Source of the DNA: Trypanosoma brucei
Taxonomy: Eukaryota
Reading direction: 5' to 3'
Length of the DNA: 64,000 bases
Assembly: GCA_000002445.1 (NCBI GenBank)
Contig: AE017150.2
Location: 160,001 to 224,000 of the forward strand
Shown: piece by piece, positions 7,775 to 50,946 of the stretch
Layout of the letters: each line of letters begins with the position of its first letter
Numbering within the stretch: the first letter of the stretch is position 1
Notes under the pieces: generated by a model
Seen by the model: the letters and a program-made list of their open reading frames with translations, nothing else
Told to the model about the DNA's origin: nothing
Database searches by the model: none
Translations under genes and position numbers: made by a program

Positions 7775-8340
7775 ATTCTGGGAGAAAAGCGTCTGGGGGG
7801 ACGTGAAGCAAGAGTTGATAATGTTTTCAGTTTATATGGCTCCGTATGCAATGCAAAGTGAAGTCACATTATAATGGACAACGAAACTCAACTGCTGTGG
7901 AGGATGGTTGTTGATGGAACGCGTAGTGGCAATGTAATGTGGAAGGATGAAGAACTTAATGTTGTCCCTGAAATTGAGGAAGCTGTTGAGAAGAAACCAG
8001 AACGCAGGGAAGAAGTTGAAGCAATGGTTCTAACATCTCAAATGGGGTGATAATAAGCCAAGTTTGCCGGGGTGAGTAACAAAAACATATTCATCCATAG
8101 AGAAGAGCTCCGCGTATGGAATGTTGTAAGGAATGGAATTGAATTATGGCGTACACAGCGTGCTTTACCGGAATGTCTTTATTTTCCACGATCATACGCT
8201 GTCATTGTTAACCATGGGATTGGAAAATCTCAGAATTTGGGCTCTTTTATCCTCTACAAGTTATTGCATTGTGATGCGGAAGAGTTGCCTATTGTTGCGT
8301 ATTTCTGCGGCATGGCAGTGTTAATATTTGAAACCAACTG
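7775..8340 (+). pseudogene. RHS (retrotransposon hot spot protein) fragment on the plus strand. It is truncated, with internal stop codons and a frameshift.
   Basis: The translation (GEKRLGGREARVDNVFSLYGSVCNAK*SHIIMDNETQLLWRMVVDG..MWKDEELNVVPEIEEAVEKKPER..IHREELRVWNVVRNGIELWRTQR..NHGIGKSQNLGSFILYKLLHCDAEELPIVAYF) aligns to residues about 40-230 of the intact minus-strand RHS at 19639-21663. It contains in-frame stops and a frame change near 8050-8075. Confidence 0.7.
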
Positions 8341-17800: not shown

Positions 17801-18560
17801 GCGTGTCGCAACAGTTGGGACTGTTTGTATTGTTGGTCCTATCGCTGCATGTTGCGGGTTACACCATCGGCACTGTGGAGGCACACTCGGGTTGATCTTC
17901 CGCACCCTCTTGAATTGCATACTGCGGAATACTGAAAGAGTTATATGGCCAACCCTTCTGCGAGGTGAGCACAGCAATCTCTAAATTACCGTGACGAGGC
18001 AGTGGGTCGCACAAGTCAAAAGGCGTGTGACTGACATTCACCTCCTCTTCTGTCCACAACTCGGGTTTGCCGTCACAATTACCCACTACCTTCATGCCAA
18101 GAGGTAAATCATTGTGACCCGACTCCACATAACCCCATGTCGCATTGTATATGGAATCATATACTCCTTTCAGTTCTGCACCACCAGCTGTTTGGTCAGC
18201 TCGTTCCCTTGCCTCTTTGGCAGTATCCAATGCCGCATCCAGCATTGCTCTCGCCCTGGGACCAACAAATTCCCTTATTTGCGCTTTTGCCATCTCCTCC
18301 CATTGCTGCATGTCTTAAATTCTATTACGAGGCAGATCAATAACTGCCCTTGGTAATTGAAACTCATCAAGCCGCTGTATCCTGTATTTCTTCAAGAACA
18401 TTAGCATTAATATATTTTCCCGGATTCTGAACAAACAAAAACATGGCCACATTCTCTGTTTTATACGTGTTTGAGAAGTATTGATTCAAAATTTCATGCA
18501 GTTTCATTTCATCCAAGCTCGCATAATCTTCCAGCAGCACATCCTCAATAGAACTGTTAA
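14885..18560 (-). pseudogene. RHS pseudogene interrupted by an ingi 3' fragment. It is a composite of a C-terminal part (14885-16336), the ingi fragment (16339-about 17895) and an N-terminal part (about 17895-18560).
   Basis: The C-part is a 466-aa in-frame RHS C-terminal region (MYVVSGKAYVF...NRGGNNA). Upstream of it, the codons LILLYKLLHYESSQL abut the ingi tail. The N-part (ORF 17859-18311 plus frameshifted upstream sequence to about 18560) matches the RHS N-terminal region (KAQIREFVGP...GVYDSIYNATWGYVESGHNDLPLGMKVV...LEIAVLTSQKGWPYNSF). It is lost roughly 180 bp short of the GIGKS motif. Confidence 0.75.
16339..17895 (-). mobile_element. ingi non-LTR retroposon, 3' fragment of about 1.6 kb. 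It comprises the C-terminal C2H2 zinc-finger part of the ingi ORF, the 3' UTR and an A8 tail. The 5' part is absent.
   Basis: The 3' terminal sequence (ggaattttcttcgtgccttcgtgagagtttc...gatgctatcggtctggcgactgtggcagagtctccc) is the same as the 3' halves of the two RIME copies, and is followed by a T8 run on the plus strand (16339-16346). The minus-strand ORF 16838-17977 contains at least five C2H2 fingers (CTICASKF..HHLRTIH, CDLCEASF..HKKFKH, CGVCQKVL..HCKAFH, CPTCGRQC..HQKKMNG, CTECDATY..HMVNKH). The 5' boundary is approximate, within about 50 bp. Confidence 0.7.
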
Positions 18561-19638
18561 TTGATCAAGTTGGCCCTTTTTCGCCTCCACGCAGTCAATT
18601 CAAAAAATATATTGCCGCATGCAACCTATTACTATGGAAACGCCTTATTGAATTCCACACTTCTGAAAACTTGCCCCCTGATTCTTCACAAGCTTGCGAT
18701 AAAAGCATAAACAAAAATAGAATCAGAAACAGAGACAGAGACAGTTTACACTGTAGAAAAGGACACCACAGTGAGTCACTCATTCTAGGAAGATAATCAC
18801 AAAAGCAAACACCCTCAAAAAGACAGCTCAGCGCCATAAAGCAGAACCTACTTACTACTAATAAGGAGTTGTGCCCCTTCCCTGCCAGTAAAGACACAAC
18901 ATTCCCCAACAAACACAGTGGAAGATCACAAGACTTATGACCCCTCCATACTAACCTAAACAAGACAGCGTGAATCACAATTGCATGCAATGCGCTAAGA
19001 ACCCAAAACGGTTCCGCACATTTGCCTCTGAGGATCCCTACTCAATCGCACCCCTACGCGGGAATCAATATTCTGCCTGTCACAAAATAACACAGCGGAC
19101 AGCAGAAGGAAAGGGGGAAAATAAAGAAACCCATCACAACACATAAGGATTTTAATGGGAACTTAAAGGAAACCTTCTAGATGAGAATGCTAACACCCAT
19201 ACCACAACAGTGCTCACAATCCTCTTGTATATCAGTGTTTAATTAGTTTTTCACAAAATGATTTGATAATCGTAACGATTCAAGGAATAAAAAAATGTAA
19301 ATGATAAGACACGACGCAACAAGCTGCCACATTGCCATTAATGGATGTATGTAATACCATTGTTACTATCCATTTCATTGTGACAACACATGCAAAATAC
19401 AATCGATACCACGGATTTCGTACGCCTTCCGTCGTGCGGTGAATCGCAGAGTGGATGTAAACAGTTGCGAAAGGATTACACCAACGCAACTGCAAGTTCG
19501 TTATGCTGCCAGGAACCTGTCCAGGATATATGATGAGTGAACTCCATTACCCAGACAAAAAATGTGACGCCTCCTCTTGCCCTTTCATTCGTTCTTCACA
19601 GTGTTTACCTCGTTGTTGGCTTGCCTGAGGTTCGTCAA

Positions 19639-21663
19639 TTACCTTCGGCCCACAGCAGCCACCGCAAGCATTTTGGTAACTATGTTATCCTCATACTGCA
19701 CATGGTACTGCTGCACATTGTTCTTCCAGAATCCCTCCACAAACTGGTGACTGCGGTGCTTTGCCTTACCCTGCGTAATTTCACACTTCTGCTCAGACCT
19801 CATCGCTGTGGATTCGAAGTGCTGAACGTAAATGATTTCCCAGTGAAACATCTCAGTAATTTCCTTCAACTGTTCAACGGTAGCCTCATTCTGGTGACCT
19901 CCCCCCTCCGCACTTGGAAAGAGGGATTGTAACAAATGAATGAATTCGTCGGTTGCTGTGTCATGGCTGCTGGCAACAGTAAACTGCAACAACACAATAG
20001 TTTTCTTCCCTATGGTTCCTGAAGCCTGTGCAGCCTGCTTTTCATCAACAATAAAGAATGCATCCGCTACGGGGTAGTTGGGAATGCATGGCACATATAA
20101 TTCCACCGGAGCCCCCTTCGACTCAGCCCAGTTGATGTCACCTGACACTGTGTTTGGTCGACAAGCATTGAGGAGGTCATCCCTTACGTGTTGCAAAATG
20201 CTTTTGCGTGTCCTCGTGCGCCTGGCCCTTTCATTTGCTGGAAGTTTCGTTATTAGACTTACGAAGCAAGTTAACACTCTGGGGGAACACAAATATTTAA
20301 TTGCATTCTTCTCAAAATAATGCCCGATGACAGATGCGTCCCGCGTCATACCAGACACCAGTGCCCACTCCTCAGCAATGCCGGAAAACACTACATTCAA
20401 AATTCTTTTCTTTATAGATTCAGAGTGAGGTACGCATATGTATATCTCACTATTGTTTCTCCCACAGGCACGAACAATCTTCACGAGTTTGTGAGATGCG
20501 TCACTTTCTCTCCATCCGCCTTTGTTACCCACCACGCCAATATAGAGTTCACGTCGCTCATGGGATTTGATGGAATTTATTTCATTGTCTATGTCGTCCT
20601 CACGCGTGGCATGCTTTGCTTCATCGAACACATAACGAAGTGAAGGTCCAACATGCTCCACACGGTTCTCATACATGTTCCACTTTTCCCTCAACTCAAC
20701 AGGCGTGGCTTGAGGAAAAAGCTTGGGTCCCACACGTGAGAAGAAAGCCCGCATTTCACTCATTTCCCAGCAGTTAACAACAATACGTGCACATCTTTCC
20801 CTCTGCTGGAACCAGCTGTCAAAATTTCTTTCATTATGTGAACTGATCAAAATGCTTCCCCATTTTGGAGCCACATCTGCCGGTGGCTGCTCACCTTTGT
20901 TGACGAAGTCATAAATAATATAACCACGTGTATTAGATGATATATTCTTCATAAACGTTATAGCCGCTTCTTTACTGTACTCCCTAACTCTGCCAACGCC
21001 ACCACCACCTGATTTCTCAAATATATATGCGGCTACACCACGGAAGTACGCAACAACAGGTAACTCTTCCGCATCATAATGCAGTAACTTGTAGAGGATA
21101 AAAGAACCAAAATTCTGAGATTTTCCAATCCCCGGGTTACCAATGGCAAGGTATGATCGTGGAAAATAAAGACATCTTGGCATAACACGTTGTGTACGCC
21201 ATAATTCAATTCCACTCCTTACAACATTCCATACACGGAGCTCTTCTCTGCGAATGAATATGTCACTGTTACTTCCCCGGGCAAAGCCTGTATATGGCCA
21301 ACCCATTTCTGAGGTAAGAACCAACAGCTCAACTCCTTTAGTGCGTTCCGGCTTCTGTTCAAGAGCTTCCTCAATTTCAGGCACGACATTAACTTCCTCA
21401 TCCTTCCACATCAAACCCTCATTGGGCATTCCATCAACCAAGCTCATTCCCAATGTTTGAGTTCCATCGTCGATAATAATATGACTCAATTTCGCATCAT
21501 AAATGGTATCGTATAATTTCTCTTCGAGAGACTTGCCCTCTCCGGTTTCTGATGGGTTCTCGTTTTCTCGGCCGGCTTGTCTCTTCATCGGGCGGTACGC
21601 ACCATTCAACCATCCATTTAAAACATTCCGAGTATCTCCCACACTACCGCCGTTCTGATTCAT
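19639..21663 (-). CDS. RHS: Retrotransposon hot spot protein (RHS), intact 674-aa ORF. N-terminal type is MNQNGG and C-terminal type ends ...VAAVGRR.
   Basis: It is a full-length ORF with the GNPGIGKSQNFGSF P-loop followed by ILYKLLHYDAEELPVVAYF. It is about 95% identical to the 675-aa paralogue at 45540-47567. An upstream U-rich tract with AG on the transcribed strand is consistent with a trans-splice acceptor. Confidence 0.85.
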   Translation of the reverse strand: MNQNGGSVGDTRNVLNGWLNGAYRPMKRQAGRENENPSETGEGKSLEEKLYDTIYDAKLSHIIIDDGTQTLGMSLVDGMPNEGLMWKDEEVNVVPEIEEALEQKPERTKGVELLVLTSEMGWPYTGFARGSNSDIFIRREELRVWNVVRSGIELWRTQRVMPRCLYFPRSYLAIGNPGIGKSQNFGSFILYKLLHYDAEELPVVAYFRGVAAYIFEKSGGGGVGRVREYSKEAAITFMKNISSNTRGYIIYDFVNKGEQPPADVAPKWGSILISSHNERNFDSWFQQRERCARIVVNCWEMSEMRAFFSRVGPKLFPQATPVELREKWNMYENRVEHVGPSLRYVFDEAKHATREDDIDNEINSIKSHERRELYIGVVGNKGGWRESDASHKLVKIVRACGRNNSEIYICVPHSESIKKRILNVVFSGIAEEWALVSGMTRDASVIGHYFEKNAIKYLCSPRVLTCFVSLITKLPANERARRTRTRKSILQHVRDDLLNACRPNTVSGDINWAESKGAPVELYVPCIPNYPVADAFFIVDEKQAAQASGTIGKKTIVLLQFTVASSHDTATDEFIHLLQSLFPSAEGGGHQNEATVEQLKEITEMFHWEIIYVQHFESTAMRSEQKCEITQGKAKHRSHQFVEGFWKNNVQQYHVQYEDNIVTKMLAVAAVGRR

Positions 21664-24600
21664 TTCACTCTCCGAATAATAATCTTAACTGAGTGTGTTG
21701 TGTTATTTCCTTTCTTTGTAACATAAATAATAAAAAAAAATTAAGATGAGGGAATTTAAAATGGATACGCTTCTAAACCAAAGCAAATATACAATAAATG
21801 AATATCAGGAATTAATATGGCAGATGGAAACTATTTACTAAAATTGAGATTCAATACAAATCTTATCATGTGTTAAGAACTCACAGCAACTTAAGCACAA
21901 ATGAGGTATGACAGTATGAATAAACATTTCTGTTTGGAGGAAAACTCAAACAACAATTCCCATTCATAAAACACAATCATTTCAGAAAAAATAATATACT
22001 TAGATATATATAAGTATGTATTGAAAAGCAAAAAAAATAAATAAATGTGGCATTGCCATGAAAAACAGGAAATAATAGTTTTAGTGATAAGCTATGCAAA
22101 ACGTATACTCAGTTAAAGGTACTCATGTGCATAATGAAGGCGCTTCACATTAAGAAATAATACAAACAACTATCAGAATTTGCGTATAATCTCACACGAA
22201 CCGTCACTCGGAATGGCATTTTGTCATAACTTCCTAATGTGGAAAAACTACTTCTAATACATACTCTCACACTCCGAATCAGTACACAGTGTGCAAATGA
22301 AAGTACGAGGTATCAAAAAAAAAAAACAATAATAATCGCCGTAAAAAGTAAAACCAATGAAAATAAAATCTTATACATCAAAGAGGAAACTCTCACCTGA
22401 CGAACAAATGCTGCTCACTTTCTTTATTTAAGTGATCCTTTTTTTTTTTGCAGCCATGGAACCATGAATCTAAGAAATATATATGAAGGCACGAATGATA
22501 TTTGTTTTGCTTTGGTATTGGAGCATCTTGCCATGCGTCTGCTTTTGTGCCTTAGTGAACCTCAAAGAAACCAAAGGCTCACGGAAGGGAACAAATATAT
22601 TTGTGGGAATAATAATTCAATATTAGGCTTCTTTTGAGGAGTGTGCTGAGTGGAATAATGGTGAAAAAGAAGTATTGAAAATTTATGCCACATGGGCAAA
22701 TGCTTTACAATATTTTCTCGCTGTCTGAAAATATGAAATATAGGGAATATATAAGGAACCAGAAACATAGGGAATATATGAAGTATAAGGAAATATATCA
22801 AATATAAGAAAATATATGATATATTCTGAAGTGCCGGATGTGTTTGTGCGTGTCTTCGTATGTGTTCTCTGCTTTATATATCACTAAATATTTTACACAA
22901 TTCCTTTTACTTTGCGTATGCTAATCGCTTGTTTCTCCCTATATAAATTAGTGGAAATATCCATTAGAGAAATAATAATTTACTTTTTTTCTTTTCCCTT
23001 CTCTTCCTTTCCCGCTAATGTTTCACCGTCTATTTTCATTCCTTATAAATATTGTAAATTTCATTTTGTTACTGTAACTATTTCCAAAAAAAAGTGTAAG
23101 TAAGAAACTTTAGTATTACATATCATAATATCTCTAAACTCCTCTTTTGTCATGTTAAGCTACTAATATTTTTATTTCCCATTCATTTTATTCAGCAGAA
23201 CATACAAAACCCCTCAAAAGTCCTTCCTTGTTTTTTTTCCTCAACATCATAATATACCTTGTGGAATATACAAATATATAATAACCATAAATGTGTTATA
23301 CATCTTCACAACATCAGAAACTTCACAAAATAATTGTGTTCCTCAATAAGCAGTGGCTGTGTTTCCTTTTACTTTCTATCAGAGTCAAACTAATTAATTA
23401 ATTACTAATAACTTCCTCCAGATATATTGCTTCTATTTTCTTGGATTATTCAGCAGCGTAACACCGGAGTCTTGAAATAAAGAGTCACAGTTCAAAGAAT
23501 ACAAAACAGTAAAAAAAATTAACAGAGACTCGCACCTTCACATTTGGTTGCATTTGGATACATCAAACGCATTTATTCGCCTCCTTGTGTTTTCTTTTTG
23601 GGGTGGGAGGAGTAAATGCAAAATGTATCAAGTTGACGAGTAGCAGAAATACAACACTTGATATAATTTCACTTACATATAAGCTTTCTTTTCCAACTTT
23701 ATTCCAATTCATAATATTTTGATAGCAATGTAATGCAGTATTCAGCCATAAACATTTTAACCATAAATATAGTAACTAATGTGTGAATGGTAACCCATGG
23801 CGATACATTCCATATGGAACAATACCACATTGTTAAATATACGCATGGAATTAAAACTATAGCACTAAATTGAAAATGAAAAAATAAAAGAGAGAAAGAT
23901 ATGAATTATCAAGAAAGGCATATTCTTCACTAACATGCACTTGTTTCAATATAATCATAATTTGAAGTTACGCTAAATGATAAGTGACCCAATATTCTGA
24001 AATGACACAATAACAATGATTCCATTATAGCAACTGTAAAATAATGATATGCAATAAAATAAATGATAAAAATAAATTAAAATACAGCAAGCAGTGCAGA
24101 ATATATTCTATTGCTATATATAAACATTTGCAAACAGATGAATACCTTTACTCATTGGAAGAAAATAATTAAATTCAAACTTCCTATGATTCTGCCAGTG
24201 TTTGTCGGCTACATGTGGGACTCAAAAAAAACAAAAAGTTTATTTTAAATAAACATGAAGAAAAGAAAAACTTCGCATGAAACCATAAGGGTATCCGTGT
24301 GAGTTATTCGCTACTGTCAAACATAGTTAACTTCACAACCCTCAAGAAAGAGAGAAATAATAAAAGTAAAAGTAAAATTTCAAGTAAAAAAATAAAATAA
24401 AAAGTAAGGAAATATAACATAATTATGCTTAACTAACTGTAATGTGAGGAATGTAAAAATAACAAAATGTTACTCACAATTTAATGTTATCAATGTTTTC
24501 CTTCACAAACGAAAACTGTCACATCTCAATGTGTTCTTTCAAATTAATGTAACGGAACCAGATATGTTTGTATAATATTCTACAATGTCATTTGGCATAT

Positions 24601-25096
24601 CCGATGCTCACTCAAAAAAAAACTTATTCGTTTTGTTGCGATGTAGCTGTTGACAGTGTTGTGCTCTTTTTCTTTTATTTTATTTTTTTTTAACATACCG
24701 CTCCGCACTTCCGTAATCCCCTCAATATTCCTGCAGTTCCCATCATAAAAGATACAAAAGAAATCCATCAAAATAAAGTAACTGGAGTCCAAGATGCTGT
24801 AGAGCACAATGTATTTATTTTGAATAATGGAATCCTGTGATATCAAAGACAATCATCTGCAATGAATAAACTGAAACATTCATTGACTCATGCCACTAAA
24901 ATAATAATTAAATTGTTAAACACATGTTCCCATCGTGTGGTAAGTAATTCAAACAATTCTGTGGCCACATGAAATACTCGAAGAAAAAGGAAACGTATAC
25001 AATGCATAAGCCATTAGTAAAGTATAAATACAGTTTTTGGTATCGAATCCATCATATGTTACAAAGCCGCATTTCACTAACACACAAGAGCAAAAT
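21664..25096. repeat. S cassette, copy 1 (about 3.4 kb AT-rich intergenic unit). The RHS 5' flank lies at its low-coordinate end. It sits between an intact or chimeric MNQNGG-type RHS and a truncated RHS.
   Basis: It is nearly identical to 32861-36317 and 47568-50946. It contains an imperfect GGAATATAT-like minisatellite (about 22700-22830) and a conserved spurious ORF (24580-24852). Confidence 0.8.
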
Positions 25097-26844
25097 TTAA
25101 CTCAACATCATATTTCGAATCATCAGTGATAGAGCTTGGCAACTGTACGATTCGATTCCTCCAACATTTGCCTTCACTCTTATAACCTTCACCAACTTGT
25201 CCGTAACTTCATTGTTCTTCCAGGCAGCCGTATGCTCAATAATATCATTATAGGAATATTCACCCGATTTCTTCATAGTTTCCAACGCATCATGAACTCT
25301 TTTCAGACGCCATTCATAACAGCTTAAAACAAATATATAACGAGGCAAAAGCCCAATTGAATTAATACGTCCCTCCACTATTCTTTACACTCATCTTCCA
25401 TTTCCTTCCTCAATTCGTGTCTTCTTCTGTTGGACACCTTTTCCCTTGCATGTATTGACAGTTTTTTCCATGCCACAAATGCCTTCATGTCACGCACATC
25501 ATCACAGTTTATAATAATTTGGCGGCCTCCCCTATTTGTAGTCCAGTTACCAAAACGGACACTATTCGGAGAAGTGAAAATAGTTACACCCCAAACATCA
25601 GAGGGAAGTTGAGTGTAAGGCTGCTGCGTTTCGTACCTTATGTCCATAATGATGTGTCCTCTGTTTTCAAATTTCATTTTATTTATGGCGTTGACCGCAG
25701 CTCTCAAATATTCGTACCGCACAACCCTTCCCTCTTTCATCACCCTTTCTGTTATATATTAAGTAGGCGATCGTGTCTGTGAAATATGCAACAACATCAA
25801 GCATTCCTTCATGGAAGTGAAGCAATGAATGAAGCAAAAATGATCCAAGGCCACATGATTTACCAATTCCAGACGTGCCAATAACAATATGTATCAGTGG
25901 TCTGTGAGCTGTCCTTTCCACCCACCATGTCTGCAGCCCTTTTTCGCCTTTATACCACACGCGCATAATTTCACGACGGATGTATACGTGCTGAAATACT
26001 GCTTTGCGCCCCGTAGTGTAATCCAATGCAAACCTGTTGTATGGCCAACCCTTCTCCGAAGTGAGAACAAAAATTTCCAAACCATCAGGCCTCTCCTCAA
26101 TCTCTGCATCAACATTGGTAGGATCACGAGTTACATCAACCCCCGCTTCGGTCCAAATGCGCTGTGGCCTTCCATCGAACACTTTCATTCCAAGTGGCTC
26201 TTCATTATAACCCGACATCACATAACTCCATTTCGCATTATATATGGATTCATACAATCCTTTCAGTACGACAGCACCACCAGCTGTTTGGGCAGCTCGT
26301 TTCCTTGCAATGCTTCCTTGAGTGCATTATCCAACATGTTAGTGACAATAATCCAAGTCTGCTCTCCATTTCTCAGTCCACGAATATCCGCCTGTAACCT
26401 GGCCTTTACTTCCTCATTTGCTTGTTGCCACTGCTGAAGATTTAATATTCCCTCTCTGAACAACAGGGGGTAAGCAGTAGCAAAAACTTTGTACGTCCAA
26501 AAGACAGGTAGAAAAAATATATCGTCCAGTATATCCTCTCTTTCAATGTATCGCTCCGGCTTTCTGGAAAACACAAACATTGATACATTATTTTCTTCAT
26601 TCACATTATATCTTCTGCCAACATTACGCCTCAAAAAATCATTCAACATCACATTTTCAGGATGTGGCAGACCTTTCAGCAAAACTGCTTCAACGCTGCT
26701 GAAAAGACTCCATTGTGGTTGGTTATTATTCTCCACTCGTTGCTGCACTGCTGGAGGTTCCGCATCGTTACGCGCAGCCTCCTCATGCCCTCGTCTCCTT
26801 CCCTCAATGTCACCCCTTCCTTCAATAGGAACCTGTTGATTCAT
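25097..26844 (-). pseudogene. RHS pseudogene with multiple frameshifts. It is the C-truncated type that ends RNMMLS, with N-terminal type MNQQVPIEG.
   Basis: Four consecutive ORFs in different frames (26263-26844, 25679-26257, 25378-25743 and 25097-25378) together align to the 579-aa ORF at 50947-52686. Confidence 0.8.
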
Positions 26845-37298: not shown

Positions 37299-37336
<38 letters not shown>

Positions 37337-41605: not shown

Positions 41606-44441
41606 TCAGTCAGCGGGGCCACCAGCAATAGCGTTTGGTTCATCCTGGGTGATCTCCTTAACAATATTCCCTTCCATCTTCACTTGAAACTGGTTGATTT
41701 TATTCCACAACTCTGTAGTATAATCGCCTCTGCCCCCAACTGGTTCGCACTTCTGCCTCACATCGATTGGCTTGCTGTCACTGTACTGTATGTAAATTAG
41801 CTCCCATTTCAAGTTTCTTGCGAGCTTATCCCATTCACGAAACAATTGTTTCATTGCCTTGATAAACTTATCTACCTTCGTTCGTGTCGTGTGATGCGTT
41901 GGTGCCACTGTCGGCTGGAGCAGAACAATTGTTGTTGCGGTGATCGCTCTTCCTTCTCTATCAACAGCTGGCTCAGTTACAAAGAAAAAGGCGTTCACAA
42001 CGGGGAAATTTCCCTGTACAGGTCGGTAAAGGCACCCAACCTCAATGTCTTGGCCTGTCGTTTCGGGGTTAAACTGACGAAGTGAAGTTGGAACACGTCC
42101 CACGGCATTACCACTTGCCAGAGCGGATACATTTGAATCCATTTCTTCTCCAACGCGAGGGAGATACCGCAGGTGCGTCACAATCGTCTGCACAACATTT
42201 CCCATCGTGAAGGCATATATGCCCACATTTTCAAATTCATCATTGGCCTGCTCTTCTTTCCCACGAAAAACCTTCCGAAGGTAATTGTCTCGCATACATG
42301 CTGTGTCCGCCCACACTCTCAATTTCTGCTCAATATAAACGGAAACAGCTCTGTTTCTGCATTCTTCTCATTCTCAGTTACAACCCGGACCAACTTAGCC
42401 AACCTGTATGTAGTCCCGTCCTCGCGCCATTCAACTCGACCATTCAGCACCTTCATGTAGTGTTCAGCATCGCCTCTACTGATTTCCTCCAGTGCCCCAT
42501 TTATTTCTCTAACATGGTCACAATAGGGTTTGTCACCTTCCAGTACGTGGCGGGGCAGTGGGCCCACCTTCTTAATCCATCCTAATATTTTCCCCCATTC
42601 GTTCTCAAGGTTTATGATGTGAGTTTCGGTGATTTTACTTGCCTCCAACTTTGACAGCCGCCTCCACGAAACCGCAGCCTTCAGTTCCACCTTTTCATAG
42701 CAATTGATGCAAAGGAACTCGTAACCCCGTGGTTCCTTCCACTCTCTGTAGTTATTTGGATCTGGAGATGTCAACACAATTACGGGCCACGCTCCCGGCA
42801 ATTTTGTCGGTATGGGTTCATCTCTCTCTTTCGAAAAGTCGTATATAATGTAACCAAGAAGCTTTTCATCAACGAAGGCCTTCACAGCATCCAATCCATC
42901 TACTTCCTCTTCATAGAATACAACCCTTCCCGGATGATCGTTTGTCGCCCTGAAGAAAATATATGCCTCGCCCTTCACAAAATAAGCGATATTCCGCAAC
43001 AGCTCCTAATCGTAATGCAGCAACCCTTGGAGCAGAAATTTTCTTCGTGCCTTCGTGAGAGTTTCTCCCCACTGGCGCGGCCATCAGCCATTACCGCAGA
43101 GCCCTTAGATGCTATCGGTCTGGCGACTGTGACAGAGTCTCCCTTTTTTATTCATCCTAACACACCCTCTATAATTTTTGTTGTAGCTCCGCAGTTGAAC
43201 GGAATACAGCAGATGGGGCGAGAAGCCTCCCACCCTGGGCTCTCCCAAAGATGTCAATTAGAAATCCTTTTTTTGGAGTTCCACATCACCGGACAGCAGC
43301 ATCTTAGTGCGGATGATACTGCTGATGGCACGCTGGCACGTGCCCAGGGACCGACAAATGAAAAACGGTGTCCCAGCAAGACGCTGCTGATCCCTGTGCT
43401 GTATGATGCCGTAGCCGGAGCACAGCAGTGTTCCCCATGAAAGGAACGCTGCTGGCTCTTGGCTTCCCCTGATGATACGGGGTACTGGACCCTGGCACCA
43501 CGTTAAGGCAGATTCATTCTTAGTGTAAGCTAAATACTCGCTGGCCGCGGGGATCGATTCCGGTACTATCTGCGACGACCAATCTACTTAACCACTAAAC
43601 CAGCGTAAGCCGAATATAATAGCCAGCACCAACTGATTTCCCAATACCTGCACTGCCGACGAGGACGCAAGGAATCTGTTTTTCGATCAGCCCTGACTCC
43701 AGCCACAAATCCAGCCTGTGCTTCACAAGATACCACACTCTCATTACCTCTCGACGAATGTACACATCCCGGTCAAACACGTAGTCTCCTGGTTCCTCCG
43801 CATCCTCTTGAATTGCATGTTCCGGAATGCTGAAAGAGTTATATGGCCAACTCTTCTGCGAGGTGAGCACAGCAATCTCTAAATTACCGTGACGAGGCAG
43901 TGGGTCGCACAAGTCATAAGGCGTGTGACTGACATTCACCTCCTCTTCTGTCCACAACTCGGGCTCGCCGTCACTATTACCCACCACCTTCATGCCAAGA
44001 GGTAAATCATTGTGACCCGACTCTACATAACCCCACGTCGCATTATATATAGAATCATATACTCCTTCAAGGTTTACAGCACCAGCAGCTGTTTGGTCAG
44101 CTTGCTTTTCCTTGCTTCTTTGGAAATGCGCAGTGCACTGTCCAACTTCGCCGCTGCAGTGAGGCAACAAGTTCCCTTATTTGCGCTGTTGCCCTCTCTT
44201 CCCAGTGCTGCATGTCTTCAATTCTATTACTAGGAGGGTAAATAACTGCCCTCGGTAATTGAAACTCGTCAGTATCCTGTATATCCTCAAGAATCTCGGC
44301 ATCAACATTAATATATCTTCTGAGATTATTAACAAACACATCCATGGACACATTCTCTGTGTTATACGTGTTTGAGGAAAACTGATTCAAAAAGTCATGC
44401 AGTTTCATTTCACCCAAACTCGCATAATCTTCCAGCAGCAC
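41606..44441 (-). pseudogene. RHS pseudogene interrupted by a 5'-truncated RIME. It is a composite of a C-part (41606-43024, one frameshift near 42320, C-terminus ...AGGPAD), the RIME, a filler and an N-part (43595-44441).
   Basis: The C-part ORFs 42319-42999 and 41606-42322 align to RHS from LLQGLLHYD/AYFVKGEAYIF to the C-terminus. The N-part ORFs 43595-44170 and 44097-44441 align to the RHS N-terminus up to GIGKSVGAG. Confidence 0.8.
43025..43508 (-). mobile_element. RIME copy 2. It has no poly(A) tail, its 5' end is truncated by about 18 nt, and its internal A-tract is 7 nt.
   Basis: It is identical to the RIME at 37062-37589 apart from its ends. It is followed on the 5' side by about 85-110 bp of unassignable sequence (43509-about 43615) before RHS resumes. 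Confidence 0.8.
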
Positions 44442-45539
44442 ATTTTCAATAGAACTGTTAATTGATCAAGTTGGCCCTCTTCCTCCTCACGCAGTCTCTT
44501 CGAAAAATACAATGGCGCATGCAACCTATTACTATGGAAACGCCTTATTGAATTCCACACTTCTGAAAGCTTGCCCCCTGATTCCTCACAAGCTTGCGAT
44601 AAAAGCATAAACAAAAATAGAATCAGAAACAGAGACAGAGACAGTTTACACTGTAGAAAAGGACACCACAGTGAGTCACTCATTCTAGGAAGATAATCAC
44701 AAAAGCAAACACCCTCAAAAAGACAGCTCAGAGCCATAAAGCAGAACCTACTTACTACTAATAAGGAGTTGTGCCCCTTCCCTGCCAGTAAAGACACAAC
44801 ATTCCCCAACAAACACAGTGGAAGATCACAAGACTTATGACCCCTCCATACTAACCTAAACAAGACAGCGTGAATCACAATTGCATGCAATGCGCTAAGA
44901 ACTCGAAACGGTTCCGCACATTTGCCTCTGAGGATCCCTACTCAATCGCACCCCTACGCGGGAATCAATATTCTGCCTGTCACAAAATAACACAGCGGAC
45001 GGCAGAAGGAAAGGGGGAAAATAAAGAAAGCCATCACAACACATAAGGATTTTAATGGGAACTTACAGGAAACCTTCTAGATGAGAATGCTAACACCCAT
45101 ACAACAACAGTGCTCACAATCCTCTTGTATATCAGTGTTTAATTAGTGTTTCACAAAATGATTTGATAATCGTAACGATTCAAGGAATAAAAAAAATGTA
45201 AATGATAAGACACGACGCAACAAGCTGCCACATTGCCATTAATGGATGTATGTAATACCATTGTTACTATCCATTTCATTGTGACAACACACGCAAAATA
45301 CAATCGATACCACGGATTTCGTACGCCTTCCGTCGTGCGGTGAATCGCAGAGTGGATGTAAACAGTTGTGAAAGGATTACACCAACGCAACTGTAAGTTC
45401 GTTATGCTGCCAGAAGCCTGTCTAGGATATACGATGAGTGAACTTCATTACTCCAACACAAAATGTGACGCCTCCTCTTGCCCTTTCATTCGTTCTTCAC
45501 AGTGCTTACTTCATTGTTGGCTTGCCCGAGGTTCGCCAA

Positions 45540-47567
45540 TTACCTTCGGCCCGCAGCAGCCACCGCAAGCATTTTGATAACTATGTTATCCTCATACTGC
45601 ACATGGTACTGCTGCACATTGTTCTTCCAGAATCCCTCCACAAACTGGTGACTGCGGTGCTTTGCCTTACCCTGTGTAATTTCACACTTCTGCTCAGACC
45701 TCATCGCTGTGGATTCGAAGTGCTGAACGTAAATGATTTCCCAGTGAAACATCTCAGTAATTTCCTTCAACTGCTCAACGGTAGCCTCATTCTGGTGACC
45801 ACCCCCCTCCGCACTTGGCAAGAGGGATTGTAGCAAATGAATGAATTCGTCGGTTTTTGTGTCATGTCTGCTGGCAACAGTAAACTGCAACAACACAATA
45901 GTTTTCTTTCCTGTGGTTCCTGAAGCCTGTGCAGCCTGCTCGTCATCAACAATAAAGAATGCATCCGCTACGGGGTAGTTGGGAACGCATGGCACATATA
46001 ATTCCACCGGAGCCCCCTCCGACTCAGCCCAGTTGATGTCACCTGGCACTGTTTTTGGTCGACGGACTTTGAGGAGGCCATCCCTTACGTGTTGCAAAAT
46101 GCTTTTGCGTGTCCTCATGCGTCTGGCCCTTTCATTTGCTGGAAGTTTCGTTATTAGATTTACGAAGCAAGTTAACACTCTGGGGGAACACAAATATTTA
46201 ATTGCATTCTCCTCAAAATAAAGCCCGATGGCAGATGCATTCCGCATCATACCAGTTGTCAGTGCCCACTCCTCAGCAATGCCGGAAAACACTACATTCA
46301 AAATTCTTTTCTTTATAGATTCAGAATGCGCCACGCAGACATACGTGTCAAAGGAGTTTCCTTCTCGAGCTTTGATACGAACGATCTTCACGAGCTTATG
46401 TGATGCATCATTGTCCCTCCATTCCCCACAGTTGTCCAGTACCTTAGTATATATTCCGTACTTGTTACCTGCTACGATACTCCCCAATTCCCCGTCCACT
46501 GCAGTAAGCTCCTGTCCATACATTACTTCGTCAAACACATAACGAAGTGAAGGTCCGACACGCTCCACACGGTTCTCATACATGTTCCACTTTTCCCTCA
46601 ACTCAACATGCGTGGCTTGAGGAAAAAGCTTGGGTCCCATACGTGAGAAGAAAGCCCGCATTTCACTCATTTCCCAGCAGTTAACAACAATAAACGCGCC
46701 TTTACGTTGCTTTTGCCAGCTGTCAAAATTTCTCAAATTAGGTGAACTGATCAAAATGCTTCCCCATTTTGGAGCCACATCTGCCGGTGGCTGCTCGCCT
46801 TTTTTGACAAAGTCATAAATAACATAACCACGTGTATTAGATGATATAACCTTCATAAACGTTATAGCCGCTTCTTTACTGTACTCCCTAACTCTGCCAA
46901 CGCCACCACCACCTGATTTCTCAAATATATATGCGGCTACACCACGGAAGTACGCAACAACAGGTAACTCTTCCGCATCATAATGCAATAACTTGTAGAG
47001 GATAAAAGAACCCAAATTCTGAGATTTACCAATCCCAGGATTACCAATGGCAACGTATGATCGTGGTAAATAAGGACATCCCGGTATAACACGCTGGGCA
47101 CGCCATAATTCAATTCCACTCCTTACAAAATTCCATACACGGAGCTCTTCTCTGCGAATGAATATGTCACTGTTACTTCCCCGGGCAAAGTCTGTATATG
47201 GCCAACCCATTTCAGACGTAAGAACCAACAGCTCCACTCCTTTAGTGCGTTCCGGCTTCTGTTCAAGAGTTTCCTCAATTTCAGGCACGACATTAACTTC
47301 CTCATCCTTCCACATCAAACCCTCATTGGGCATTCCATCAACCATCCTCATTCCCAATGGTTGAGTTCCATCGTCGATAATAATATAACTCCATTTCGCA
47401 TTATAGGTGGAATCGTATAATTTCTCTTCGAGAGACTTGCCCTCTCCGGTTTCTGATGGGTTCTCGTTTTGTCGGCCGGCTTGTCTCTTCATTGGGCAGT
47501 ACGCACCATTCAACCATCCATTTAAAACATTCCGAGTATCTCCTACACTACCGCCGTTCTGATTCAT
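45540..47567 (-). CDS. RHS: Retrotransposon hot spot protein (RHS), intact 675-aa ORF. It is a paralogue of the RHS at 19639-21663.
   Basis: It is a full-length ORF with MNQNGG...GIGKSQNLGSFILYKLLHYDAEELPVVAYF...VAAAGRR. It is about 95% identical to copy 1, except for a divergent patch at about 46325-46545. Confidence 0.85.
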   Translation of the reverse strand: MNQNGGSVGDTRNVLNGWLNGAYCPMKRQAGRQNENPSETGEGKSLEEKLYDSTYNAKWSYIIIDDGTQPLGMRMVDGMPNEGLMWKDEEVNVVPEIEETLEQKPERTKGVELLVLTSEMGWPYTDFARGSNSDIFIRREELRVWNFVRSGIELWRAQRVIPGCPYLPRSYVAIGNPGIGKSQNLGSFILYKLLHYDAEELPVVAYFRGVAAYIFEKSGGGGVGRVREYSKEAAITFMKVISSNTRGYVIYDFVKKGEQPPADVAPKWGSILISSPNLRNFDSWQKQRKGAFIVVNCWEMSEMRAFFSRMGPKLFPQATHVELREKWNMYENRVERVGPSLRYVFDEVMYGQELTAVDGELGSIVAGNKYGIYTKVLDNCGEWRDNDASHKLVKIVRIKAREGNSFDTYVCVAHSESIKKRILNVVFSGIAEEWALTTGMMRNASAIGLYFEENAIKYLCSPRVLTCFVNLITKLPANERARRMRTRKSILQHVRDGLLKVRRPKTVPGDINWAESEGAPVELYVPCVPNYPVADAFFIVDDEQAAQASGTTGKKTIVLLQFTVASRHDTKTDEFIHLLQSLLPSAEGGGHQNEATVEQLKEITEMFHWEIIYVQHFESTAMRSEQKCEITQGKAKHRSHQFVEGFWKNNVQQYHVQYEDNIVIKMLAVAAAGRR

Positions 47568-50500
47568 TTCACTCTCTGAATAATAATCTTAATTGAGTGT
47601 GTTGTGTTATTTCCTTTCTTTGTAACATAAATTAAAAAAGAATTAAGATGAGAGAATTTAAAATGGATACGCTTCTAAACCAAATCAAATATACAAAAAT
47701 GAATATTAGGAATTAATATGGCAGATGGAAACTATTTATTGAAATTAGGATTCAATACAAATCTTATCATGTGTTGGGGTGTCACGGCAACTTAAGCACA
47801 AATAAGGTATGACAGTATGAATAAACATTTCTGTTTGGAGGAAAACTCAAACAACAATTCTCAGCTACTGCACACCATCATTCCAGAAAAAATAATATAC
47901 TTAGATATATTTATGTATTGAAAAGCAAAAAAATAAATAAATGTGGCATTGCCATGAAAAATGGGAAACAATAGCTTTACTCATAAGCTATGTAAAACGT
48001 AGAATACTCGATTAAAGTTACTCATGTGCATGATGAAGGCGCTTCACATTAAGAAATAGTACAAACAACTATCAGAACTTGCGCATAATCTCACATGAGC
48101 CGTCACTCGGAATGACATTTTGTCATAACTTCCTAATGTGGAAAAACTATTTCTAATGCCAACTCTCACGCTCCGAATCAGTACACAGTGTGCAAATGAG
48201 AGTACGAGATATCAAAACAATAATAATCGCCGTAAAAAGTAAAACCAATGAAAATAAAATCTTATACATCAAAGAGGAACCTCTCTCACCTGACGAACAA
48301 ATGCTGCTCACTTTCTTTATTCTTTATTTAAGTGATCCTGTGTTTTTTTTTCTTGCAACCATGGAGCCATGAATCTAAGAAATATATATATGTGAAGGCA
48401 TGAAAGATATTTGTTTTGCTTTGGTATTGGAGCACCTTGCCATGCGTCTGCTTTTGCGCCTTGGTGAAACTCAAAAGAAACGAAAGGCTCACGGAAGGGA
48501 ACAAATATATTTGTGGGAATAATAATTAAATATTAGGCCTCTTTTGAGGAGTGTGTTGAGTGTAATAATGGTGAAAAAGAAGTATTGAAAATTTATGCCA
48601 CATGGACAAATGCTTTACAATGTTTTCTCTCTATCTGAAAATATGGAATATATGGAATATATAAGGAACCAGAAACATAGGGAATATATGAAGTATAAGG
48701 AAATATATCAAATATAAGAAAATATTTGAAATATATGGAAAACATATGAGAGGCAAAAAGAATGGAAAGAAATTTGGTAAATGAATATACATTCATGGAA
48801 ATATCCATTAGAGAAATAATAATTTTCTTTTTCTCCTCCCTTCCCGCTAATGTTTCACCCGCTTATTTCCATTCCTTATAAATATTGTAAATTTCTTTTT
48901 GTTACTGTAACTATTTCCAAAAAAAAAGTGTAAGTAAGACACTTTAAGCATTACATATCATAATATCTCTAAACTCCTTCTATGTTATGTTAATCTACTA
49001 ATATTTTCATTCCCATTCATTTTATTCAGCAGAACATACAAAACCCCCTCAAAAGTCCTTCCTTGTTTTTTTCTTCAACATCATAACATATCTTGTGGAA
49101 TATACAAATATATAATAACCATAAATGTGTTATATATCATCACAACATCAGAAGCTTCACGACATAATTGTGTTCCTCAAGAAGCAGTGGTTGTGTTTCC
49201 TTTTATTTTATCTCATAGTCAAACTAATTAATTAATTACTAATAACATCCTCCAAAGATATTGCTTCTATTTTCTTGGATTGTTCAGCAGCGTAACACCG
49301 GAGTCTTGAAATAAAGAGTCACAGTTCAAAGAATACAAAACAGTAAAAAAAAAATAATAAACAGAGACTCGCACCTTCACAATTGGTTGCATTTGGATGC
49401 ATCAAACATATTTATTCGCCTCCTTGTGTTTTTTTTTTGGGGGTGGGAGGAGTAAATGCAAAATTATATCAAGTTGACGAGTAGTAGAAATACAACACTT
49501 GATATAATTTCACTTACATATAAGCTTTCTTTTCCCACTTTATTCCAATTCATAATATTTTGATAGCAATGTAATGCAGCATTCAGCTATAAACATTTTA
49601 ACCATAAATATAGTAACTAATGTGTGAATGGTAACCCATGGCGATACATTCCATATGGAACAATACCACATTGTTAAATATACGCATGGAATTAAAACTA
49701 TAGCACTAAATTGAAAATGAAAAATTAAAAGAGAAAAAGATATGAATTATCAAAAGAGGCATATTCTTCACTAAGATGCACTTGTTTCAATACAATCATA
49801 ATTTGAAATTACTTTAAATAATAAGTGGCCCAATATCCTGAAACGACACAATAACAATGATTTCATTATAGCATCTGTAAAATAATGATATGCAATAAAA
49901 TAAATAATAAAAATAAATTAAAATACAGCAAGCAGTGCAGAATATATTCTATTGCTATATATAAACATTTGCCAACAGATGAATACCTTTACGCATTGGA
50001 AGAAAATAATTAAATTCAAACTTCCAATGATTCTGCCCAGTGTTTGTCGGCTACATGTGGGACTCAAAAAAAAACAAAAATTTATTTTAAATAAACATGA
50101 AAAAAAGAAAAACTTCGCATGAAACCATAAGGGTACCCCTGTGAGTTATTCGCTACTGTCAAACATAGTTAACTTCACAACCCTCAAGAAAGAAAGAATT
50201 AAATAATAAAAGTAAAAGTAAAATTTCAAGTTAAAAAAATAAAAATAAAAATTAAGGAAATATAACATAATTATGCTTAACTAACTGTAATGTGAGGAAT
50301 GTAAAAATAACAAAATGTTACTCACAATTTAATGTTATCAATGTTTTCCTTCACAAACAAAAACTGTCACATCTCAATGTGTTCCTTCAAATTAATGTAA
50401 AGGAACCAGATATGTTTGTATAATATTCTACAATGTCATTTGGCATTGTCCGATGCTCACTCAAAAAAAAAAACTTATTCGTTTTGTTGCGATGTAGCTG

Positions 50501-50946
50501 TTGACAGTGTTGTGCTCTTTTTCTTTTTTTTTATTTTTTTTAACATACCGCTCCGCACTTCCGTAATCCCCTCAATATTCCTGCAGTTCCCATCATAAAA
50601 GATACAAAAGAAATCCATCAAAATAAAGTAACTGAAGTCCAAGATGCTGTAGATCGCAATGTATTTATTTTGAATAATGGAACCCTGTGATATCAAAGAC
50701 AATCATCTGCAATGAATAAACTGAAACATTCACTGACTCATGCCACTAAAATAATAATTAAATTGTTAAACACATGTTCCCATCGTGTGGTAAGTAATTC
50801 AAACAATTCTGTGACCACATGAAATACTCGAAGAAAAAGGAAACGTATACAATGCATAAGCCATTAGTAAAGTATAAATACAGTTTTTGGTATCGAATCC
50901 ATCATATGTTACAAAGCCGCATTTCACTAACACACAAGAGCACAAT
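47568..50946. repeat. S cassette, copy 3
   Basis: It is collinear with S1 and S2. Confidence 0.8.

What the first reader, a model, noticed from the sequence alone, without database searches (positions are those of the whole stretch)
20420..20625. A mosaic patch of about 200 bp with roughly 60 divergent codons inside otherwise about 95% identical RHS paralogues
The paralogues 19639-21663 and 45540-47567 are near-identical except between about 20420-20625 and 46325-46545. There the proteins read ATREDDIDNEINSIKSHERRELYIGVVGNKGGWRES.. versus MYGQELTAVDGELGSIVAGNKYGIYTKVLDNCGEWRDN... The sharp edges suggest a short gene-conversion tract from a third RHS subfamily.
Basis: seen in the sequence. Interest (0 to 1): 0.5.

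Follow-up and report, generated by a model that had tools for sequence, protein, structure and literature searches.

The report
RHS6-type cassette inside a trypanosome RHS5 gene
Two neighbouring copies of a Trypanosoma brucei "retrotransposon hot spot" (RHS5) gene are about 95% identical except for a sharply bounded ~200-bp block, which in one copy matches the related RHS6 gene; this is an ordinary short gene-conversion mosaic in a gene family known to recombine.

Summary
The two ORFs (19639-21663 and 45540-47567, minus strand) differ at 99 of 1821 aligned bases outside the patch. Inside it they differ at 100 of 210. The patch is 20425-20626 in copy A and 46326-46533 in copy B.

Synonymous sites in the patch are saturated (pS 0.71, against dS 0.08 in the flanks). 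So the block has a much older history than its flanks and is not a local burst of amino-acid change.

The window is T. brucei TREU927 chromosome 2. "RHS" here means the trypanosome retrotransposon-hot-spot family, not bacterial Rhs. Both genes are RHS5.

- **Copy B:** its patch is the one found in RHS5a and in a chromosome-4 RHS5.
- **Copy A:** its patch, shared with XP_951477, is 63/64 identical to RHS6a. A is only 82-86% identical to RHS6a just upstream and 34% downstream.

Two further short RHS6-like blocks occur in RHS5 genes, and their groupings are mutually incompatible, so exchange is recurrent.

The best reading is a short non-allelic gene conversion from RHS6 into the A lineage. The direction is inferred, and no RHS6 DNA was available.

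The tract coincides with two helices plus a β-hairpin of a tentatively winged-helix-like module.

Interest is low to moderate, because this kind of event is already known.

The parts
19639..21663 (-). RHS5-subfamily gene, copy A (674 aa; XP_951494.1 / AAQ15577.1), carrying the RHS6-type cassette
   Evidence: ORF. Exact-sequence look-up. Pfam RHS_N (51-159) plus RHSP (173-468). C-terminal domain 235/253 identical to RHS5a.
45540..47567 (-). RHS5-subfamily gene, copy B (675 aa; XP_951495.1 / AAQ15579.1), carrying the native RHS5-type cassette
   Evidence: ORF. Same 90% cluster as RHS5a (CAB95337 / AAL14356). Pfam domains.
20425..20626 (-). Patch in copy A (202 nt; aa 349-412 differ): the RHS6-type cassette
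   Evidence: Boundaries. 63/64 aa identical to RHS6a and 26/64 to copy B. pS 0.71 and pN 0.40 against B.
46326..46533 (-). Patch in copy B (208 nt; aa 348-413): the RHS5-type cassette
   Evidence: Boundaries. 66/66 identical to the chromosome-4 RHS5 (P0002) and 61/66 to RHS5a.
20627..20649 (-). 5' (gene-sense) junction block: 23 nt identical in A and B (B: 46534-46556), encoding GPSLRYVF, a motif conserved across the whole RHS family
   Evidence: Family conservation of VGPxPRYVF.
20369..20424 (-). 3' junction block: at least 56 nt identical in A and B (B: 46270-46325). It begins with the codons for SESIKKRI. HSESIKKRI is identical in all five RHS5 proteins and in RHS6a, and is the last stretch shared with RHS6a.
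   Evidence: Protein columns 571-579 are 9/9 identical in all pairs.
20786..20811 (-). Second, very short mosaic block (B: 46693-46715). Copy A, XP_951477 and RHS6a read SWFQQRERCAR; copy B, the chromosome-4 RHS5 and RHS5a read SWQKQR-KGAF.
   Evidence: 13 of 23 aligned bases differ, LLR 24; columns 441-449.
17896..26454 (.). Segmental duplication unit 1 (about 8.6 kb) containing copy A. Unit 2 is 43794-52296 and contains copy B. Identity is 93-95% in coding and non-coding parts alike.
43794..52296 (.). Segmental duplication unit 2, containing copy B

Best explanation
The patch is the footprint of a short-tract, non-allelic homologous exchange between two subfamilies of the T. brucei RHS gene family. 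The exchange could be a gene conversion or an equivalent double crossover.

Copy B keeps the cassette native to RHS5. In the lineage leading to copy A and its 98%-identical relative XP_951477, about 200 bp were overwritten by the homologous stretch of an RHS6-type gene.

The exchange resolved inside two short blocks that RHS5 and RHS6 share. On the 5' side this is the family-wide GPSLRYVF motif. On the 3' side it is the HSESIKKRI island, after which RHS5 and RHS6 lose similarity altogether.

Shown here:
- the sharp bounds of the patch;
- saturated synonymous divergence inside it;
- the discrete two-haplotype distribution among paralogues;
- near-identity of copy A's cassette to RHS6a;
- incompatible site patterns that prove repeated exchange.

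Inferred: the direction (RHS6 as donor) and the molecular pathway (heteroduplex or synthesis-dependent repair using short homology).

At protein level the tract replaces a contiguous structural unit, two helices plus a β-hairpin, lying after the P-loop ATPase and its helical lid. This unit is tentatively the helix-turn-helix and wing of a winged-helix-like module.
For: - **Bounds and significance:** 100/210 columns differ inside the patch against 99/1821 outside, LLR 121, P about 1e-67. The patch is the top outlier in the whole 8.6-kb duplication.
- **Old history rather than local selection:** pS is 0.71 and pN 0.40 in the patch, against dS 0.082 and dN 0.048 in the flanks. The invariant peptide DASHKLVKIVR inside the patch has synonymous differences in 5 of its 11 codons.
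- **Discrete haplotypes:** A, XP_951477 and RHS6a share one version; B, the chromosome-4 RHS5 and RHS5a share the other.
- **A is closer to RHS6a in the tract than around it:** the A-RHS6a mismatch is 1/64 in the patch, 10/55 just upstream, 41/299 in the core and 162/246 downstream (p = 0.003-0.004).
- **B's cassette looks long resident in RHS5:** the B-RHS5a mismatch is 5/66 in the patch and 26/298 in the core (p = 1), as expected if this cassette has been in RHS5 since these lineages split.
- **Both flanks of A are RHS5:** the leader is 49/49 identical to RHS5a and the C-terminal domain 235/253, so two breakpoints are needed.
- **Recurrent exchange:** 42 sites group {A, XP_951477, RHS6a}, clustered in columns 505-570 and 441-449. 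Ten sites group {RHS5a, RHS6a}, eight of them in columns 383-395. The two groupings are mutually incompatible. RHS6a is the common partner in all three blocks, which favours RHS6 as the donor.
- **No other source:** neither cassette is found in the window, among 5.8 billion proteins or in the exhaustive representative library.
- **Structure:** the divergent residues, aa 349-412, map onto H348-364, H368-378, β394-400 and β406-412, at pLDDT 73-87 in the full-length model and 80-94 in the sub-domain model.
- **Literature:** RDP4-supported mosaic structures and segmental gene conversion are described for T. cruzi RHS, and recombinant RHS pseudogenes for T. brucei (PMC7563717).
Against: - The donor comparison rests on one RHS6 protein sequence. 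No RHS6 nucleotide sequence was available, so synonymous-site identity and exact breakpoints against the donor are untested.
- The direction is not proven. [quoted passage not shown]
- Divergence between RHS5 (B type) and RHS6a in the shared core is itself patchy. The patch can therefore equally be described as an island that escaped earlier RHS5/RHS6 homogenisation and was converted later only in the A lineage.
Confidence: 0.72

Rival explanations
1. Same exchange, opposite direction or ancient dimorphism. Under this reading both cassettes are old alternative alleles of the RHS5/RHS6 core, and RHS6 received its cassette from an A-type RHS5. Alternatively, both types have been maintained by selection and are reshuffled in either direction.
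For: Only one RHS6 sequence is available, and RHS6 is annotated as single-copy (PMC6393297). Both cassettes are about equally distant (25-35% identity) from every other RHS subfamily and species, so outgroups do not polarise them. The cassettes share a one-residue insertion relative to other RHS proteins.
Against: RHS6a is the partner in three separate blocks that involve two different RHS5 lineages. Making RHS6 the recipient needs three imports, plus an unexplained origin for each divergent RHS5 segment. The B-type cassette is present in two of the three RHS5 lineages, with divergence matching their flanks.
Confidence: 0.2
2. Local diversifying selection or hypermutation. Under this reading the patch is a hypervariable segment that diverged in place after the duplication, without any exchange.
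For: The region is among the less conserved parts of the RHSP domain across the family. It is probably surface-exposed helices and a hairpin.
Against: Synonymous divergence is saturated (pS 0.71), about nine times the flank pS, even in codons of an invariant peptide, and dN/dS in the patch is below 1. Only two discrete versions exist, each shared by paralogues on different chromosomes. Copy A's version is 63/64 identical to RHS6a.
Confidence: 0.03
3. Single unequal crossover. Under this reading copy A is a simple two-part chimera, RHS6-like on the 5' side and RHS5 on the 3' side, and the upstream edge of the patch is only where RHS5 and RHS6 happen to become similar.
For: The 3' edge abuts the exact point where RHS6a and RHS5 stop being similar (columns 571-579). 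In the core, A is almost as close to RHS6a (258/299) as to B (267/298). Other junction chimeras exist in the window.
Against: In the 55 residues just upstream of the patch, A matches B at 52/55 but RHS6a at only 45/55, and A shares none of the ten RHS6a-specific residues. A also has the RHS5-specific 49-residue leader (49/49 to RHS5a). Two breakpoints flanking the patch are therefore required.
Confidence: 0.04
4. Assembly artefact. Under this reading reads from different RHS paralogues were merged in a repetitive region.
For: The region is highly repetitive, with several 85-95% identical blocks.
Against: The same RHS5-with-RHS6-cassette structure recurs in an independent locus (XP_951477, 98% identical to A with its own substitutions). 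The B structure recurs on chromosomes 1 and 4. Both ORFs are intact and in frame, with only a clean 6-nt indel between them.
Confidence: 0.01

Closest known systems
Mosaic or chimeric RHS genes made by segmental and interlocus gene conversion in Trypanosoma cruzi (Bernardo et al. 2020, PMC7563717)
   Same: It is the same protein family (Pfam RHS_N plus RHSP). Short fragments of one paralogue are inserted into another, and the resulting mosaic genes stay intact. The paper reports inserted fragments as small as about 4% of the gene, and the tract here is about 10%.
   Different: The species and subfamilies differ. Here the exchange is between two named T. brucei subfamilies (RHS6 and RHS5). It was shown by hand from five RHS5 sequences and one RHS6 sequence rather than by RDP4, and the donor comparison is at protein level only.
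T. brucei RHS family and its subfamily classification (Bringaud et al. 2002, as summarised in PMC6393297 and PMC7563717)
   Same: The window is part of the chromosome 2 RHS cluster of TREU927. The two genes are RHS5 by C-terminal domain. They have the ATP/GTP-binding motif GNPGIGKS, and neighbouring RHS pseudogenes are interrupted just after that motif.
   Different: Subfamilies are defined by the C-terminal domain. This finding shows that a block upstream of that domain does not follow the subfamily boundary, since two of the five RHS5 proteins carry the RHS6 version. I could not read the 2002 paper, so I cannot say whether it already noted this.
Segmental gene conversion that builds mosaic VSG genes in T. 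brucei (cited in PMC7563717; the comparison is from my own knowledge)
   Same: Both occur in the same organism and involve non-allelic homologous exchange between diverged paralogues in subtelomeric or repetitive regions. In both, junctions lie in short stretches of shared sequence.
   Different: VSG mosaics are selected during infection for antigenic novelty on a surface coat. RHS proteins are nuclear or cytoplasmic factors linked to transcription (PMC6393297), and there is no evidence that this event is programmed or immune-selected.
Bacterial Rhs / YD-repeat polymorphic toxins
   Same: They share only the acronym and the general idea of variable segments in paralogues.
   Different: They are unrelated proteins. 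No YD or RHS-repeat Pfam family was detected, and the genes here are eukaryotic P-loop proteins.

Membership tests
Trypanosome retrotransposon hot spot (RHS) protein family | Pfam RHS_N (PF20445) followed by the RHSP P-loop domain (PF07999), with a Walker-A motif | tested here: met
   in A, RHS_N covers 51-159 (E 1e-18) and RHSP covers 173-468 (E 3e-55); B is equivalent. GNPGIGKS is present in both.
RHS5 subfamily (T. brucei) | C-terminal domain of RHS5 type (subfamilies are defined by C-terminal similarity) and the short RHS5 leader | tested here: met
   B falls in the same 90% cluster as RHS5a. A against RHS5a is 235/253 in the C-terminal domain and 49/49 in the leader.
RHS6 subfamily (T. 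brucei) | RHS6-type C-terminal domain and a long N-terminal extension with DUF7578 | tested here: not met
   A against RHS6a is 84/246 in the C-terminal domain. A has no DUF7578 or N-terminal extension. Only the cassette (63/64) and a 9-residue block are of RHS6 type.
Non-allelic gene-conversion tract | A sharply bounded segment whose divergence from the sister paralogue far exceeds that of the flanks, at synonymous sites too | tested here: met
Non-allelic gene-conversion tract | An identifiable third sequence that is closer to the recipient inside the tract than outside it | tested here: met
   At protein level only: the A-RHS6a mismatch is 1/64 inside, against 10/55 and 41/299 outside.
Non-allelic gene-conversion tract | Nucleotide-level identity with the donor, and breakpoints confirmed by formal tests (GENECONV, 3SEQ or RDP) | not testable with these tools
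   No T. brucei DNA outside the window could be retrieved.
Non-allelic gene-conversion tract | Phylogenetic incongruence between segments (incompatible bipartitions) | tested here: met
   42 sites support {A, XP_951477, RHS6a} and 10 sites support {RHS5a, RHS6a}. Both sets are spatially clustered.
Non-allelic gene-conversion tract | Direction of transfer (which copy is donor) | tested here: inconclusive
   Parsimony favours RHS6 as donor. Outgroups are uninformative.
Winged-helix (wHTH) domain, for the structural unit replaced | Helix-turn-helix followed by a β-hairpin wing, with significant structural matches to known wHTH domains | tested here: inconclusive
Bacterial Rhs / YD-repeat toxins | YD / RHS repeats and a C-terminal toxin tip | tested here: not met
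   No such Pfam family was detected at E up to 0.01. All homologues found are trypanosome proteins.

The most novel reading that the evidence does not exclude
The exchanged block may not be a neutral scar but a functional cassette. It would be the helix-turn-helix plus wing of a winged-helix-like module sitting behind the RHS ATPase. Under this reading, T. brucei keeps two very old versions of this reading head (about 40% identical) and moves them between RHS6 and RHS5 paralogues. RHS6 is the subfamily most closely associated with DNA and chromatin. The result would be RHS5 proteins with RHS6-type nucleic-acid or partner specificity.
Probability: 0.12. Interest if true: 0.45.

Novelty: new member of a known kind. 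Interest (0 to 1): 0.22.

Why it matters
The finding mainly matters for bookkeeping. It shows that T. brucei RHS subfamily labels, which are based on the C-terminal domain, do not hold for the whole protein. Two of the five RHS5 proteins carry a 64-residue RHS6 block, on top of a core that is about 86% identical to RHS6.

This is relevant to anyone who assigns mass-spectrometry peptides, RNAi fragments or antibodies to "RHS5" or "RHS6". For example, RHS5 was the second most abundant protein in the RHS6 pull-down reported in PMC6393297. Whether shared peptides contributed to that result is my speculation.

The finding also adds a clean, well-bounded example of short-tract ectopic conversion, with junctions in 23-nt and at least 56-nt identity blocks, in a non-antigen gene family of an organism where such events are usually studied only in VSGs.

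If the cassette proves to be a functional winged-helix reading head, it would give a handle on how RHS paralogues diversify their chromatin or partner specificity.

Tried and rejected
- **Donor inside the window.** blastn-short, relaxed blastn and tblastn of both patches found only the two genes themselves. Other RHS copies are at most 32% identical, and there is no reverse-strand match, so an inversion is excluded.
- **Compensating frameshifts.** The 27-nt mini-patch is not the same bases read in another frame. The main patch is truly divergent DNA.
- **Fetching T. brucei DNA for the paralogues.** The look-up of encoding contigs had no record for XP_951477, the chromosome-4 RHS5 or copy A. 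An exact 33-mer from copy A's patch had no match in the metagenome contigs.
- **Patch-only protein search.** The 89-aa B-patch query shared too few index words and returned nothing, which was a technical failure and wasted a search. A profile of all six RHS5/6 proteins returned the same 13 proteins as the first search.
- **Exhaustive phmmer with the B patch.** It found only the RHS5 and RHS6 representatives, more distant RHS proteins at about 41% identity, and spurious summed matches to bacterial repeat proteins. No outside donor for the B-type cassette emerged.
- **Outgroup polarisation.** Both cassettes are 25-35% identical to every other RHS, so this was uninformative.
- **Sequence search of solved structures.** Only meaningless CutA hits at E about 0.003 were returned.
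- **Foldseek on the sub-domain.** Nothing significant was found.
- **Bringaud et al. 2002.** The paper could not be read.
Full report
**1. What is there**

The window is a piece of Trypanosoma brucei brucei TREU927 chromosome 2. Both lie on a 1,193,948-bp record.

"RHS" here is the trypanosome retrotransposon-hot-spot family. Both proteins have Pfam RHS_N and the RHSP P-loop domain, and all homologues found are trypanosome proteins. They have nothing to do with bacterial Rhs toxins.

Copy B sits in the same 90%-identity cluster as RHS5a and a chromosome-4 paralogue. Copy A clusters with XP_951477, which lies elsewhere on chromosome 2. By their C-terminal domains and short leader, both are RHS5.

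They lie in two units of an 8.6-kb segmental duplication (17896-26454 and 43794-52296). The units are 93-95% identical in coding and non-coding DNA alike.

**2.

- Outside the patch, the genes differ at 99 of 1821 aligned positions.
- Inside the patch, they differ at 100 of 210. The patch is A 20425-20626 and B 46326-46533, counted from first to last differing base. There is one 6-nt indel.
- 55 of 70 codons are changed at nucleotide level and 40 at amino-acid level.
- A two-rate segmentation gives a log-likelihood ratio of 121 nats, and the binomial tail is about 1e-67.
- Over the whole duplicated unit this is the strongest outlier by a wide margin.
- The edges are abrupt. There are 23 identical bases on the 5' side in gene sense (20627-20649, encoding GPSLRYVF) and at least 56 on the 3' side (20369-20424, starting with the codons for SESIKKRI).

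**3. It is a block with a different history, not local selection**

Synonymous differences in the patch are saturated (pS 0.71, pN 0.40). In the flanks, dS is 0.082 and dN is 0.048.

Even the peptide DASHKLVKIVR, which is invariant between the copies and lies inside the patch, has synonymous differences in 5 of its 11 codons. A burst of amino-acid change after the duplication cannot produce this.

There is no inverted or displaced copy of either version in the window. The nearby 27-nt mini-patch is not a compensated frameshift.

**4. Where the two versions come from**

Only six RHS5/RHS6-like proteins exist in the searched collections. In these, the patch has two discrete forms:

- **A type:** copy A, XP_951477 and RHS6a (Q8T9M4).
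- **B type:** copy B, the chromosome-4 RHS5 and RHS5a.

Copy A compared with RHS6a, segment by segment (Fisher p = 0.003-0.004):

| Segment | A vs RHS6a identity |
|---|---|
| Shared core upstream | 258/299 |
| 55 residues immediately upstream of the patch | 45/55 |
| Patch | 63/64 |
| C-terminal domain | 84/246 |

In the 55 residues immediately upstream, A matches B at 52/55. Copy A's leader is 49/49 identical to RHS5a and its C-terminal domain 235/253, so A is RHS5 on both sides of the patch. Two breakpoints are therefore needed.

The B-type cassette differs between copy B and RHS5a as much as their flanks do (5/66 against 26/298, p = 1). This fits a long residence of that cassette in RHS5.

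Neither cassette resembles any other RHS subfamily or species by more than about 35%. An exhaustive search with the B cassette found no outside source.

**5. Exchange between RHS5 and RHS6 is recurrent**

- 42 parsimony-informative columns group {A, XP_951477, RHS6a}. They cluster in the patch (columns 505-570) and in a separate 9-residue block (columns 441-449, window 20786-20811).
- 10 columns group {RHS5a, RHS6a}, eight of them in columns 383-395.
- These two groupings are incompatible on any single tree.

RHS6a is the common partner in all three blocks, which involve two different RHS5 lineages. The most economical reading is therefore that an RHS6-type gene donated short tracts to RHS5 genes at least two or three times.

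The reverse direction, or an old dimorphism shuffled both ways, cannot be excluded. Only one RHS6 sequence and no RHS6 DNA were available.

A complementary description also fits. Divergence between B-type RHS5 and RHS6a is patchy across the shared core. The core may therefore have been largely homogenised earlier, with the patch as an island that was converted only in the A lineage.

**6. Mechanism**

The outcome is what short-tract non-allelic gene conversion, or a double crossover, produces. The junctions sit in the only two nearby stretches that RHS5 and RHS6 share.

The 3' stretch (HSESIKKRI) is also the last point of RHS5/RHS6 similarity before the subfamily-specific C-terminal domains begin.

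Other sharp recombination junctions at conserved motifs occur in the same window. One example is an ORF at 32231-32860 that joins the RHS5 leader to a different RHS core just before the codons of the conserved IYNAKWS motif, which both sequences keep in diverged form.

The molecular pathway is inferred, not shown.

**7. What the tract replaces in the protein**

An AlphaFold model of copy A has mean pLDDT 63.5, with 73-87 across the patch. A better model of residues 296-475 has pLDDT 82.

Both place the divergent residues 349-412 exactly on four consecutive elements: helix 348-364, helix 368-378, strand 394-400 and strand 406-412.

- Foldseek found nothing significant.

The idea that the cassette is the helix-turn-helix plus wing of a winged-helix-like module is therefore tentative. 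No paper in the searchable library links RHS with a winged helix.

**8. Comparison with what is known**

The T. brucei RHS family, its subfamilies and its clusters on chromosome 2 have been known since 2002. RHS2, RHS4 and RHS6 act in Pol II transcription and mRNA export. RHS6 is annotated as the sole member of its subfamily and is the one most closely associated with DNA (PMC6393297).

Mosaic RHS genes formed by segmental and interlocus gene conversion are documented for T. cruzi with RDP4. Recombinant RHS pseudogenes are mentioned for T. brucei (PMC7563717).

The present case is thus a specific, clean instance of a known process. I found no description of this particular RHS6-type block in RHS5 genes, but I could not read the original 2002 paper.

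**9. Verdict**

- It is a new member of a known kind, of low to moderate interest.
- The most novel surviving reading is a functional, exchangeable winged-helix-like reading head. It is possible but weakly supported.

Noticed in passing
window 20786-20811 (copy B: 46693-46715): A second, 26-nt mosaic block lies in the same genes. Copy A reads FQQRERCAR, as does RHS6a, while copy B reads QKQR-KGAF, as does RHS5a. It is separated from the main patch by 55 codons in which copy A is RHS5-like. It could be a second tract of the same event or an independent one.
   Followed up: partly
window 32231-32860 (-), junction near 32700; compare 21485-21663: This ORF joins the RHS5 upstream region and 51-residue leader (MNQNGG...EEKLYDS) to the core of a different RHS type (SYVMSGYDEEPLGMKVF). 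The DNA alignment shows near-identity to copies A and B up to the LYDS codons. Divergence then rises sharply, starting in the codons of the conserved IYNAKWS motif. This is another recombination junction at a conserved motif.
   Followed up: partly
RHS6a (P0003) residues 1-181, compared with window 26263-26844 (-) and 50947-52686 (-): The long N-terminal extension of RHS6a, which contains DUF7578, is about 73% identical to the N-termini of two RHS ORFs in the window. Those ORFs continue with a non-RHS5/6 core. RHS6 itself therefore looks modular: the N-terminus of one type, a core shared with RHS5, and its own C-terminus.
   Followed up: partly
RHS5a (P0016) alignment columns 383-395, not in the window: The chromosome-1 RHS5a carries an RHS6a-type block (KKYSKGAAMDLLE) where the other four RHS5 proteins read REYSKEAAITFMK. 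It is 14/14 identical to RHS6a across columns 383-396, against 5-6/14 for copies A and B.
   Followed up: yes
window 18170-18616 vs 44068-44516: This is the second-largest substitution-rich block in the segmental duplication (76 of 438 positions differ, against about 5% background). It lies in the N-terminal part of an RHS pseudogene downstream of the RHS5 genes and is possibly another exchange.
   Followed up: no
window 22816-22952 vs 48726-48796: An indel-rich stretch upstream of the RHS5 genes where the two duplication units cannot be aligned cleanly: unit 1 is about 65 nt longer, and 29 of 62 aligned bases differ.
   Followed up: no
window 37204-38616 (-); repeats at 16338-16597, 37061-37318 and 43037-43274: An RHS ORF runs normally through the P-loop (GTPGIGKSYGVGSFLLHSL). 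It then reads into unrelated sequence that ends in a run of lysine codons (an A-run). About 240-260-bp repeats at 92-95% identity sit at three RHS pseudogenes. This looks like the classic RIME/ingi insertion hot spot, but I did not check it against a retroelement reference.
   Followed up: no
window 16838-17977 (-): A 379-aa ORF contains several C2H2 zinc-finger motifs (Pfam zf-C2H2_4 and zf-C2H2). It lies between RHS fragments and may be part of an ingi retroelement ORF.
   Followed up: no
window 69-3038 (+): A 989-aa ORF is made almost entirely of leucine-rich repeats (Pfam LRR_4 at E 1e-49 and other LRR families). It sits on the opposite strand from the RHS array and is probably the ESAG8-like LRRP commonly found beside RHS clusters. 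That identification is from memory and was not tested.
   Followed up: partly
window 7820-8338 (+): An isolated fragment of an RHS5/6-type core lies on the opposite strand to the rest of the array. It is 83.5% identical in nucleotides to copies A and B and 66% identical in amino acids to RHS6a residues 191-363. It does not reach the patch region.
   Followed up: no
copies A and B outside the patch: Constraint on the RHS5 genes looks weak. dN/dS is about 0.58 overall and about 0.85 in the 3' third. Coding divergence (5.4%) is about the same as that of the flanking non-coding DNA (5-7%).
   Followed up: partly
copy A residues about 520-615 (window about 19820-20105): The most conserved C-terminal motif of the family (P-V-x-D-A/G-F-F ... 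V-L-L-Q-x-T) sits on consecutive β-strands in the model. It resembles a degenerate PD-(D/E)xK nuclease core with Q in place of the acidic residue. This was not tested by a domain-level fold search.
   Followed up: no
P0017 and P0018 (hits from the representative library): The B-type cassette gives summed E-values of 1e-11 to 1e-16 against very long repeat proteins (1313 and 4352 aa). Each repeat matches only weakly (about 31-36% over 39 residues), so these are spurious accumulations and not homologues.
   Followed up: yes
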